Shown: positions 17,311 to 17,876, counted from the stretch's first letter. The stretch is 25,424 bases of DNA from Eubacteriales Family XIII. Incertae Sedis bacterium (GCA_031283865.1 JAITAX010000109.1:1-25424), one strand, 5' to 3'. Program-made: numbers and translations. Notes: a model not told the origin generated them from the sequence alone.

Positions 17311-17673
17311 ATGACAACGGTTTACGATTTTGAACTGCCTAAGGGCTATGTGGATTCACAGGGGACGGTGCATCGCAAGGGAAAGATGCGCCTCGCGACG
17401 GCGGGCGATGAGATCGGTGCCACGCGCGACCCGCGCGTACTGTCCAATCCCTCTTACCTGACCATCGCGGTGCTGTCCAAGGTGATCACGGAGATCGAGG
17501 GCATGGAAAGCGTGGCGCCGAACATCCTCGAGCGGTTCTTTACGGCGGACCTGGCTTTTCTGCAGGATATGTACCAGCGCATCAACAACATCGAGCCGCC
17601 GACCATGACGGTCGTGTGCGAGGGTTGCGGGAATACCATGCAGGTCCCCATAAATTTTACGCGCGAGGGATAA
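17311..17673 (+). CDS. phage tail assembly chaperone-like protein
   Basis: YDFELPKGYVD..G..HRKGKMRLATAGDEI, ERFFTADLAFLQDMYQRIN, CxxC (CEGC). Immediately downstream of the tube gene. Confidence 0.8.
   Translation: MTTVYDFELPKGYVDSQGTVHRKGKMRLATAGDEIGATRDPRVLSNPSYLTIAVLSKVITEIEGMESVAPNILERFFTADLAFLQDMYQRINNIEPPTMTVVCEGCGNTMQVPINFTREG
17652..17658 (+). promoter_or_regulatory. candidate -1 programmed ribosomal frameshift heptamer A_AAT_TTT
   Basis: X_XXY_YYZ pattern in the correct phase (ATA AAT TTT), four codons before the chaperone stop codon. A -1 slip enters the DUF6760-like frame. Confidence 0.55.
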
Positions 17674-17876
17674 GGCTCTACCCGGAGGAAGCTCTCTTCC
17701 GGGAGATGTCCTTTATTTCCTACTACTTTCACTGGAGCCGTGCGGATGTGGAAACGCTTTCGCACAATGATCGCAGGCGCTGGTGCCGGGAAATTTCGGA
17801 GATCAACGCGAGCCTGAATCCCTCGGACAAAAAAGAAAAGAGCATTTTGGAGCTGGGAAGAACGCAAAGACGCTGA
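17670..17876 (+). CDS. DUF6760-like small protein; no proper ATG start, possibly the -1 frameshift extension of the chaperone or ATA-initiated
   Basis: LYPEEALFREMSFISYYFHWSRADVETLSHNDRRRWCREISEIN matches DUF6760-type ORFs that follow CIS chaperones. It lies in the -1 frame relative to 17311..17673. The usual Met position is ATA (17670), overlapping the TAA stop. Confidence 0.75.
   Translation: MRLYPEEALFREMSFISYYFHWSRADVETLSHNDRRRWCREISEINASLNPSDKKEKSILELGRTQRR

What the first reader, a model, noticed from the sequence alone, without database searches (positions are those of the whole stretch)
17641..17876. Lambda G/GT-style -1 frameshift candidate fusing the CIS tail chaperone to the start-less DUF6760-like ORF
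Seen: the chaperone ends ...CCC ATA AAT TTT ACG CGC GAG GGA TAA, with the heptamer A_AAT_TTT (17652-17658) in the canonical X_XXY_YYZ phase. A -1 slip continues as YARGIRLYPEEALFREMSFISYYFHW..., giving a 188-aa fusion (116+72) alongside the 120-aa chaperone. The downstream ORF has no usable ATG+SD: its Met slot is ATA. The nearby GGAGG (17684) and the next ATG (17706) are 17 nt apart and lie within a predicted hairpin (CCCGGAGGA/TCTTCCGGG, 17681-17703). Established: long-tailed phages (lambda G/GT, P2 E/E', Mu) use such frameshifts between the tube and tape-measure genes. Inference: DUF6760-like ORFs may be the 'T' halves of frameshifted chaperones in eCIS. I am not aware of this being described for eCIS.
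Basis: partly seen in the sequence, partly recalled or inferred. Interest (0 to 1): 0.72.

Follow-up and report, generated by a model that had tools for sequence, protein, structure and literature searches.

The report
Frameshifted tail chaperone in injection system
The assembly-helper gene of a phage-tail-like injection machine (eCIS) in a gut Clostridia genome very probably makes a second, longer protein when some ribosomes slip back one base, as tailed phages do. This explains why the adjoining DUF6760 reading frame has no start codon and is annotated inconsistently.

Summary
A 120-aa chaperone gene (17311-17673) ends 15 nt after an in-phase A_AAT_TTT (17652-17658). The -1 frame runs on for 72 codons through a DUF6760 domain, giving a 188-aa fusion.

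In this window alone the heptamer is not beyond chance. The comparative evidence is what carries the case.
- DUF6760 lies in the -1 frame in 162 of 162 related chaperone/DUF6760 pairs.
- 159 pairs have an in-phase slippery heptamer in the overlap; 157 of these are AAATTTT.
- 114 pairs have no ATG, GTG or TTG before the conserved Tyr.
- On a tree of 81 genes, third codon positions change a median of 24 times, but never in the three heptamer codons. The codon before AAT switches among Ile, Val and Leu at least 16 times and always ends in A.
- More distant loci carry other slippery motifs at the same place: T_TTT_TTA, G_GGT_TTT, G_GGG_GGA, G_GGA_AAA and G-runs.
- The chaperone's profile matches and predicted fold point to phage tail assembly chaperones.

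Some distant lineages give DUF6760 its own ATG, so the frameshift is not universal.

I rate it a new member of a known kind (lambda G/GT, P2 E/E+E'). I found no paper describing it for eCIS. This scan has already noted the same thing on other DNA (15 notes).

The parts
17311..17673 (+). Tail assembly chaperone gene (the 'G' part), 120 aa, with ATG start and an AGGGG Shine-Dalgarno sequence. The N-terminal ~95 aa form the chaperone fold; a C-terminal CxxC beta-hairpin follows.
   Evidence: Searches give the ORF and its start context. phrog_508 'tail assembly chaperone' matches at E = 1.4e-7. Relatives match Phage_TAC_7 and Gp41_Mu weakly. The AF2 model has pLDDT 90.9. Its best structural matches are YqbN, the HK97 tail assembly chaperone and Mu FS-gp41.
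17652..17658 (+). Slippery heptamer A_AAT_TTT: P-site Asn AAU re-pairs on AAA and A-site Phe UUU re-pairs on UUU.
   Evidence: Present in 157 of 162 related loci. The surrounding 10 nt, TAAATTTTAC, are invariant in 144 unique junction sequences. The third positions of its three codons show zero changes on the tree, against a median of 24 elsewhere.
17658..17876 (+). The -1-frame extension (the 'T' part): 72 codons plus stop, containing the DUF6760 domain. It has no start codon of its own.
   Evidence: Three-base periodicity of variation in this frame across relatives shows purifying selection.
17670..17673 (+). ATAA overlap: the -1-frame codon ATA sits in the 'Met slot' of stand-alone DUF6760 genes and overlaps the chaperone's TAA stop.
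   Evidence: In relatives the slot codon is ATA, CTA, TTA, GTA or CTG. It is ATG in only 11 of 162 and TTG in 4 of 162.
17666..17721 (+). Stem-loop specific to this lineage, starting 7 nt after the heptamer. It may act as a local stimulator but is not conserved.
   Evidence: -27 kcal/mol, z = -2.44; no consensus structure in relatives.
13146..13733 (+). Context: Pvc16_N / Afp16-type cap protein, an eCIS hallmark.
   Evidence: E = 5.1e-27.
14578..14961 (+). Context: DUF4280 PAAR-like spike tip.
15016..16719 (+). Context: tail sheath.
16798..17298 (+). Context: tail tube (gp19/Cis1-like), immediately upstream of the chaperone.
17927..18415 (+). Context: second tube-like protein (weak Cis5 / gp19 matches).
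18441..21200 (+). Context: 919-aa protein with no family match. It is a tape-measure candidate by position only.
   Evidence: Atlas model pLDDT 0.38.
21204..25335 (+). Context: two CIS_tube (Cis7-like) genes, two VgrG-related ORFs and a gp25/TssE-like baseplate wedge gene.

Best explanation
This is a programmed -1 ribosomal frameshift of the phage G/GT (P2 E/E+E', Mu gp41/FS-gp41) type, operating in an eCIS operon. Most ribosomes translate the 120-aa tail assembly chaperone and stop at TAA 17671. A minority, with tRNA-Asn on AAU in the P site and tRNA-Phe on UUU in the A site, slip back one base on A_AAU_UUU. They re-pair on AAA and UUU and continue in the -1 frame. The product is a 188-aa protein: chaperone residues 1-116 fused to a 72-residue tail holding the DUF6760 domain, with the junction reading ...VPINF|YARGIRLYP....

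What is shown: the anatomy, nucleotide-level selection on the slip site, the absence of a start codon, selection on the -1 frame upstream of the 'Met slot', and the chaperone's kinship with phage tail assembly chaperones.

What is inferred by analogy with lambda gpG/gpGT: the short and long forms are made in a fixed ratio, the chaperone part coats the tape-measure protein, and the DUF6760 part recruits a tube or tube-initiator subunit. Both forms would then be absent from the finished particle.
For: 1. Frame and slip site. In 162 of 162 related chaperone/DUF6760 pairs DUF6760 lies in the -1 frame. 159 pairs have an in-phase X_XXY_YYZ heptamer in the overlap, and 157 of these are AAATTTT. In 98 pairs a -1-frame stop leaves only 28 nt in which a shift can occur.
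2. Synonymous constraint. Among 81 distinct genes, mean third-position entropy is 1.31 bits. The only codons with zero entropy are two Met codons, the three heptamer codons and GAG119. Codon 114 is ATA, GTA, CTA or TTA although these are rare codons in the same genes: 10% of Ile, 18% of Val and 5% of Leu. On a tree, its first base changes at least 16 times and its third base never.
3. No start codon. 114 of 162 pairs have no ATG, GTG or TTG before the conserved Tyr. All 13 other genes examined in the operon start with ATG, most with a visible Shine-Dalgarno sequence. Gene callers give DUF6760 lengths from 54 to 90 aa. They recorded 159 DUF6760 clusters against 3081 chaperone clusters.
4. The -1 frame is under selection upstream of the slot. 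T is never seen (0 of 144) at the base that would create TGA. The -1-frame Tyr is kept as TAC or TAT even where the 0-frame Thr changes to Ile. The -1-frame GGG is invariant.
5. Different slippery motifs occupy the same place in more distant loci. These are T_TTT_TTA (L093), G_GGT_TTT plus T_TTT_TTA (L087), G_GGG_GGA (L174, L175), G_GGA_AAA (L188) and G-runs (L086, L089, L090).
6. A_AA.U_UU.U belongs to the H_HH.U_UU.Y class, which was measured as efficient in E. coli (PMC4066793).
7. Chaperone identity. phrog_508 matches at E = 1.4e-7. Relatives match Phage_TAC_7 and Gp41_Mu weakly. The best structural matches are YqbN (Z = 7.0) and the HK97 tail assembly chaperone (Z = 6.1), well above the next unrelated rows at Z below 3. 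Mu FS-gp41 appears among the BFVD hits.
Against: - There is no direct evidence of the fusion protein: no proteomics, ribosome profiling or reporter assay.
- In this clade there is no conserved downstream stimulatory RNA structure.
- Some distant lineages give DUF6760 its own ATG (L176, and L177 with a TGATG overlap). DUF6760 can therefore evidently work as a separate protein. 15 of the 162 close relatives have ATG or TTG in the slot.
- A word-limited search found no natural in-frame chaperone-DUF6760 fusion.
- The tape-measure identity of the 919-aa protein is unproven, and a tube-like gene lies between it and the frameshift site.
- The predicted tube-DUF6760 complex gave no answer.
Confidence: 0.84

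Rival explanations
1. DUF6760 is a separate protein made by termination-reinitiation (translational coupling) at the ATAA overlap, using ATA or another near-cognate codon as its start. No frameshift is needed.
For: Stand-alone DUF6760 genes with ATGA- or TGATG-type overlaps exist in distant lineages (L175, L177). 11 of 162 close relatives have ATG in the slot and 4 have TTG. Coupled reinitiation tolerates weak start codons (established knowledge).
Against: In most relatives the slot codon is ATA, CTA, TTA, GTA or CTG, so it behaves as an internal hydrophobic residue. GAGGG abuts the slot with zero spacing. This model does not explain the invariant heptamer with its synonymous constraint. It also does not explain the -1-frame constraints upstream of the slot.
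Confidence: 0.07
2. A shorter DUF6760 (56 aa) starts at the conserved in-frame ATG 17706 (the REM motif), or an 86-aa form starts at GTG 17616.
For: ATG 17706 is conserved in the 144 aligned close-relative junctions. Some gene callers use it, giving products of 54-56 aa. GTG 17616 exists in this window.
Against: GGGAG abuts ATG 17706 with no spacer, and that ATG lies inside this window's hairpin. Starting there would remove the conserved Y-P...Y-x-E segment that Pfam DUF6760 and the stand-alone homologues include. A GTG at the 17616 position occurs in only 9 of 162 relatives and has no Shine-Dalgarno sequence.
Confidence: 0.04
3. The longer product arises from transcriptional slippage (an extra base in the mRNA), or the conserved TAAATTTTAC is a DNA or RNA signal unrelated to recoding.
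For: The G-run lineages (G6-G7) could in principle support polymerase slippage. The 10-nt block is invariant.
Against: A3T4 is not a homopolymer run of the length known to give transcriptional slippage (established knowledge; see also PMC5009743). No promoter-like or terminator-like site was scored at the heptamer. No Rfam family matches. The motif's codon phase and its replacement by other in-phase slippery heptamers in relatives fit ribosomal slippage.
Confidence: 0.03

Closest known systems
Bacteriophage lambda gpG/gpGT and the conserved -1 frameshift of long-tailed phage tail assembly chaperone genes (Levin, Hendrix & Casjens 1993; Xu, Hendrix & Duda 2004, 2013, 2014; summarised in PMC5009743)
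   Same: Both have a small chaperone gene directly after the tail tube gene. Both have an in-phase slippery heptamer a few codons before its stop and a -1 ORF without a start codon that extends the protein. In both, the position is conserved across relatives while the slippery sequence varies.
   Different: The host is an eCIS rather than a phage. No DUF6760 relative was found in IMG/VR by pattern scan, and the chaperone had no tblastn hit in INPHARED phages. The 'T' part is the Pfam family DUF6760. The heptamer is A_AAU_UUU rather than G_GGA_AAG. A tube-like gene lies between the site and the presumed tape measure.
Phage P2 gpE / gpE+E' and phage Mu gp41 / FS-gp41 (contractile-tail chaperones made by -1 frameshift; Pfam Phage_TAC_7, Gp41_Mu)
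   Same: All belong to contractile-tail systems. Relatives of this chaperone give weak matches to both Pfam families. Mu FS-gp41 shares the fold at TM 0.52, rmsd 3.2 A.
   Different: The sequence similarity is below the Pfam thresholds. The C-terminal CxxC hairpin and the DUF6760 extension have no counterpart that I could show in P2 or Mu.
HK97 tail assembly chaperone (PDB 2ob9) and B. subtilis YqbN (PDB 3klu)
   Same: They are the best structural matches of the modelled chaperone: Z = 6.1 and 7.0, clearly above the unrelated rows.
   Different: Sequence identity is only 7-9%, and Z is below 8, so fold similarity alone is not proof of homology.
Cis6 / Afp6 / Pvc6 / Alg6 spike plug of eCIS (PMC8894136, PMC12546770)
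   Same: It is also a small, mostly helical eCIS protein encoded near the tube-initiator genes.
   Different: Neither DUF6760 nor a DUF6760 profile matches any chain sequence of the solved structures. DUF6760 lies before, not after, the Cis5-like gene. I do not file it as Cis6.

Membership tests
Tail-assembly-chaperone -1 programmed frameshift (lambda G/GT type) | Two overlapping ORFs, the second in the -1 frame and without its own start codon | tested here: met
   DUF6760 is in the -1 frame in 162 of 162 relatives, and 114 of these have no ATG, GTG or TTG before the conserved Tyr.
Tail-assembly-chaperone -1 programmed frameshift (lambda G/GT type) | An in-phase slippery sequence in the overlap, under selection, conserved in position but variable in sequence among distant relatives | tested here: met
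   (AAATTTT invariant, with synonymous constraint). (T_TTT_TTA, G_GGT_TTT, G_GGG_GGA, G_GGA_AAA, G-runs).
Tail-assembly-chaperone -1 programmed frameshift (lambda G/GT type) | The upstream ORF is a tail assembly chaperone by homology or fold | tested here: met
   phrog_508 at E = 1.4e-7. Sub-threshold Phage_TAC_7 and Gp41_Mu matches in relatives. Structural matches to YqbN, the HK97 chaperone and Mu FS-gp41. Scores are moderate.
Tail-assembly-chaperone -1 programmed frameshift (lambda G/GT type) | Gene position between the tube gene and the tape-measure gene | tested here: inconclusive
   The chaperone lies directly after the tube gene. The next genes are a tube-like ORF and a 919-aa protein with no family match.
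Tail-assembly-chaperone -1 programmed frameshift (lambda G/GT type) | The fusion protein is made in vivo at a set ratio and is needed for tail assembly | not testable with these tools
   This needs a reporter assay, mass spectrometry or genetics.
Extracellular contractile injection system (Afp/PVC-like eCIS) | Sheath, tube, VgrG-like spike, PAAR-like tip and gp25-like baseplate genes in one operon | tested here: met
Extracellular contractile injection system (Afp/PVC-like eCIS) | Afp16/Pvc16-type cap protein | tested here: met
   Pvc16_N at 13173-13685, E = 5.1e-27. It is also present in the relatives L082 and L176.
Extracellular contractile injection system (Afp/PVC-like eCIS) | AAA+ ATPase (Cis15) present, and no capsid or packaging genes | not tested
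   The contig ends at 25424. No capsid or terminase family was seen among the ORFs scanned. The ATPase was not searched for.
Pfam DUF6760 (PF20546) | Score above the gathering cut-off | tested here: met
   60 bits against a cut-off of 27. 59.3 bits in the six-frame genome search.
Cis6/Afp6/Pvc6 spike plug | Sequence similarity to the plug chains of solved CIS particles | tested here: not met
   No PDB chain was matched by the protein or by a 16-member profile. The proteins are short and divergent, so this is weak negative evidence.

The most novel reading that the evidence does not exclude
The eCIS of many bacteria carry an unrecognised, essential assembly factor. It is a tail assembly chaperone whose long form is made only by -1 frameshifting into DUF6760, which acts as the eCIS-specific 'T' domain and recruits tube subunits onto the tape measure. 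Lineages have switched repeatedly between the frameshifted form and a separately initiated DUF6760. Standard annotation, and engineered or heterologously expressed eCIS constructs that treat the two ORFs as independent genes, would then mis-set or lose this product.
Probability: 0.5. Interest if true: 0.65.

Novelty: new member of a known kind. Interest (0 to 1): 0.55.

Why it matters
- It gives the Pfam family DUF6760 a concrete reading: the frameshift-encoded extension of a tail assembly chaperone. This explains why gene callers annotate it with inconsistent starts or miss it.
- It adds a chaperone with two forms to the eCIS parts list. The Afp/PVC/Cis 1-16 scheme used in the eCIS papers I read names no tail assembly chaperone or frameshift.
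- It makes testable how eCIS tube polymerisation and length are controlled.
- It matters practically for people who re-code, split or codon-optimise eCIS operons for protein delivery, because silent changes to the heptamer would remove the long form.
- The mechanism itself is the well-known phage G/GT frameshift, so for phage biologists this is an expected inheritance rather than a surprise.

Tried and rejected
- **Fusion structure.** Single-sequence AlphaFold of the 188-aa fusion (with X at the break) gave pLDDT 37 and is unusable.
- **Tube-DUF6760 complex.** Complex prediction of the tube protein with the 72-aa extension returned 'no answer'. It is not evidence either way.
- **Natural in-frame fusions.** A search for in-frame chaperone-DUF6760 fusions returned 4 candidates and one hit. 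The hit is an unrelated chimera on a 908-nt contig. P0229 looks like an assembly-indel read-through.
- **DUF6760 against solved structures.** Only chance-level hits, for the protein and for a profile.
- **Chaperone against INPHARED phages (tblastn).** No match.
- **DUF6760 profile patterns in IMG/VR.** No relative found.
- **Conserved downstream RNA structure in the AAATTTT clade.** None found. The alifold energy is -0.8 and the mean MFE z-score is -0.49.
- **Rfam and promoter/terminator scans around the site.** Nothing relevant.
- **Reaching another phylum.** I tried through the genome labelled Bacteroides thetaiotaomicron (L051/G401). This returned the same genomes as the window's own phylum sample.
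- **GAGGG as a Shine-Dalgarno sequence for the Leu codon.** I considered GAGGG (17665-17669) serving the Leu codon 6 nt downstream. That codon is CTG in only 60% of relatives, which is ordinary Leu codon usage, and it is CTC here.
- **Atlas search for the 919-aa protein.** Uninformative.

Full report
**1. Observation**

The ORF 17311-17673 encodes a 120-aa protein ending ...QVPINFTREG*.
- Its last codons are CCC ATA AAT TTT ACG CGC GAG GGA TAA, so AAATTTT (17652-17658) is in X_XXY_YYZ phase.
- The -1 frame is open from 17616 to the stop at 17874-17876.
- From the slip site it reads YARGIRLYPEEALFREMSFISYYFHW.... A slip therefore gives 116 + 72 = 188 aa.
- Pfam DUF6760 matches the -1 ORF at 60 bits against a cut-off of 27, beginning at the ATA codon (17670-17672) that overlaps the TAA stop.
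- The GGAGG at 17684, the ATG at 17706 and the 23-nt hairpin at 17681-17703 (-14.6 kcal/mol) are all present.

Taken alone, the heptamer is not beyond chance. AAATTTT occurs once in the window against 2.4 expected. The window's genes hold 16 in-phase X_XXY_YYZ heptamers.

**2. Context**

The window is a whole 25.4-kb contig of a 1.5-Mb, 70%-complete metagenome-assembled genome. Its closest relatives are Clostridia genomes of the same kind: Eubacteriales Family XIII, Oscillospiraceae and Lachnospiraceae. The operon reads in this order:
- Pvc16_N cap (13146-13733)
- a 259-aa ORF
- DUF4280 PAAR-like protein
- sheath
- tube
- chaperone, with DUF6760 overlapping its end
- a second tube-like protein
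- a 919-aa protein with no family match
- two CIS_tube proteins
- two VgrG-related ORFs
- a gp25-like protein

With the Afp16/Pvc16-type cap present and no capsid genes seen, this is an eCIS-type locus. Relatives show the same order, for example L082 and L176 with Pvc16_N.

**3. Comparative test of the frameshift**

I collected 80 loci from species-representative genomes (chaperone 72-93% identical). I added 80 metagenome loci found with a DUF6760 profile, seven more distant loci from a 401-genome sample of the phylum and two loci fetched by exact protein look-up (L082, L086).

Results across these loci:
- In 162 of 162 chaperone/DUF6760 pairs, DUF6760 is in the -1 frame and overlaps the chaperone's end.
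- 159 pairs have an in-phase canonical heptamer in the overlap, and 157 of these are AAATTTT.
- 114 pairs have no ATG, GTG or TTG in the -1 frame between the last upstream stop and the conserved Tyr.
- In 98 pairs that frame is open for only 28 nt before the 0-frame stop, so any shift must happen there.

In 144 unique junction sequences, the 10 nt TAAATTTTAC are invariant while neighbouring third positions vary freely.

Evidence of selection on the slip site:
- Among 81 distinct chaperone genes, mean third-position entropy is 1.31 bits. The only codons with zero entropy are two Met codons, the three heptamer codons and GAG119.
- The codon before AAT is ATA, GTA, CTA or TTA. The amino acid changes but the final A does not. 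Elsewhere in these genes, ATA makes up 10% of Ile codons, GTA 18% of Val, and CTA plus TTA 5% of Leu. AAC also outnumbers AAT, 161 to 115.
- On a tree built from codons 1-112, third positions change a median of 24 times. The first base of codon 114 changes at least 16 times. The third bases of codons 114, 115 and 116 change 0 times.

This is selection on the nucleotide sequence of the heptamer, not on the peptide.

**4. The -1 frame is read upstream of the 'Met slot'**

- The base that would create a -1-frame TGA (third base of codon 118) is never T, in 0 of 144 sequences. T is present at other third positions, for example 13 to 35 of 144 at four neighbouring ones.
- The -1-frame Tyr right after the slip is TAC in all loci but one. 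In that locus (L073) it is TAT, and the 0-frame Thr has become Ile.
- The third base of GAG119, which is the first base of the -1-frame GGG, is invariant.
- The slot codon itself is ATA, CTA, TTA, GTA or CTG in most loci. It is ATG in only 11 and TTG in only 4 of 162. It behaves as an internal hydrophobic residue, not as a start.
- All 13 other genes examined in the operon begin with ATG, most with a visible purine-rich Shine-Dalgarno sequence. DUF6760 has GAGGG abutting the slot with no spacer, and GGGAG abutting ATG 17706.
- Gene callers give DUF6760 lengths of 54-90 aa. They recorded only 159 clusters for it against 3081 for the chaperone, as expected for an ORF with no real start.

**5. 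More distant relatives**

At 38-50% chaperone identity, DUF6760, where present, is still in the -1 frame, but the slippery motif differs.

| Loci | Slippery motif | Start codon for DUF6760 |
|---|---|---|
| L082, L088, L091, L092 | A_AAT_TTT | none before the conserved Tyr |
| L087 | G_GGT_TTT followed by T_TTT_TTA | none before the conserved Tyr |
| L093 | T_TTT_TTA | none before the conserved Tyr |
| L174 | G_GGG_GGA | none before the conserved Tyr |
| L175 | G_GGG_GGA | ATG also present |
| L188 | G_GGA_AAA | possible GTG |
| L086, L089, L090 | G5-G6 runs in the pattern NNG_GGG_GAN | none in L089, L090; L086 has a distant upstream GTG |
| L176 | none | own ATG |
| L177 | none | own ATG (TGATG overlap) |

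Other chaperone lineages are followed by an unrelated small gene (L085, L191; an unassigned 62-aa ORF in L190) or stand alone (L178).

A conserved position with a variable slippery sequence is the signature Xu, Hendrix and Duda used for phage chaperones (described in PMC5009743). The lineages with their own ATG show that the frameshift is not universal and that DUF6760 can function unfused.

**6. Stimulators**

In the AAATTTT clade there is no conserved structure 3' of the site. This window does have a longer stem-loop at 17666-17721, starting 7 nt after the heptamer (-27 kcal/mol, z = -2.44). It may help locally.

In the G-rich-motif lineages, a hairpin pairing the Y-P codons with the E-E-V-A codons is often significant, with z from -2.1 to -3.5 in 4 of 6 loci.

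A_AA.U_UU.U falls in the H_HH.U_UU.Y class, reported among the most efficient motifs in E. coli (PMC4066793). Lambda's own site needs no strong stimulator (my own knowledge).

**7. What the two parts are**

The chaperone:
- It matches phrog_508 'tail assembly chaperone' at E = 1.4e-7.
- Among 30 diverse relatives, 8 give sub-threshold matches to Phage_TAC_7 (P2 gpE / Mu gp41 family) and 5 to Gp41_Mu.
- An AlphaFold model built with 30 relatives has pLDDT 90.9.
- Its best solved-structure matches are B. subtilis YqbN (Z = 7.0), the HK97 tail assembly chaperone (Z = 6.1) and two further prophage or PICI proteins. Unrelated rows score below Z = 3.
- Among viral models it matches T4-like 'baseplate hub assembly' proteins (E down to 2e-7) and Mu FS-gp41.

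DUF6760:
- It has no match among the chain sequences of solved structures. It is therefore not demonstrably the Cis6/Pvc6 plug described in PMC8894136 and PMC12546770.
- A pattern scan of IMG/VR found no relative of it.
- That it acts like lambda's T domain and binds tube subunits is inference. The complex prediction gave no answer.

**8. Literature and novelty**

- No paper in the library mentions DUF6760.
- No paper combines contractile injection systems with a slippery site.
- No paper combines them with a chaperone frameshift in a relevant way.
- The eCIS papers I read list Cis1-16 without a tail assembly chaperone.

The mechanism is the known phage G/GT frameshift, so I class this as a new member of a known kind.

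This scan has already recorded the same phenomenon on other genomes: 15 notes, of which 8 were shown to me. I reached my reading before seeing them. I took two leads from them: the P2 gpE family (tested) and the G-run hairpin (tested).

**9. Verdict**

A programmed -1 frameshift at 17652-17658 produces a 188-aa chaperone-DUF6760 fusion alongside the 120-aa chaperone. My confidence is about 0.84. The rivals are coupled reinitiation at the ATAA overlap, internal initiation at ATG 17706 or GTG 17616, and transcriptional slippage or an unrelated signal. None of them explains the heptamer's synonymous constraint. Together I give them about 0.14.

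Noticed in passing
window 22846-24030 and 24065-24877: Two adjacent ORFs in different frames, 34 nt apart, match consecutive parts of one VgrG-related profile (NF033848 positions 201-348 and 366-542). This could be a split spike gene, a second recoding event or an assembly indel.
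   Followed up: no
window 1774-13114: Six large ORFs upstream of the cap gene (602, 312, 877, 401, 709 and 897 aa) have almost no family matches. The only hits are one MORN repeat and one OEP-like stretch. They may be cargo, effector or accessory genes of the eCIS.
   Followed up: no
window 13146-13733 versus 13211-13780: Two overlapping long ORFs lie here. The Pvc16_N cap match is in the TTG-started frame 13146-13733, not in the GTG-started ORF I first scanned.
   Followed up: yes
window 21938-21944: An in-phase T_TTG_GGT lies one codon before the stop of the first CIS_tube gene, with 114 open codons in the -1 frame. This is probably chance in a 61% GC genome. I did not compare it with relatives.
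   Followed up: no
L085:624-827, L191:1753-1956: In some chaperone lineages the downstream small gene is not DUF6760. It is an unrelated ~67-aa protein in the +1 frame with its own ATG, sharing a ...PEL(I/V)..(V/L)..KV..(L/M)M... motif.
   Followed up: partly
BFVD hits of model mb3fe9d968b02: T4-like 'baseplate hub assembly' proteins of about 260 aa share the chaperone fold over their first ~115 residues (E down to 2e-7). They might be permanently fused counterparts in phages that lack the G/GT frameshift.
   Followed up: no
L051 / G401: The record is titled as a Bacteroides thetaiotaomicron MAG. Its 'phylum' sample nevertheless returned the same DUF6760-positive genomes as the window's own phylum. 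The label or the binning is probably wrong.
   Followed up: partly
L086, L090, L175, L188 (3' of their G-rich slip sites): A hairpin pairing the Tyr-Pro codons (GCUACCCCC) with the Glu-Glu-Val-Ala codons (GAGGAGGUAGC) starts 5-9 nt after the G-rich motif in three of them (about 21 nt in L188), with z from -2.1 to -3.5. It is absent from the AAATTTT clade.
   Followed up: partly
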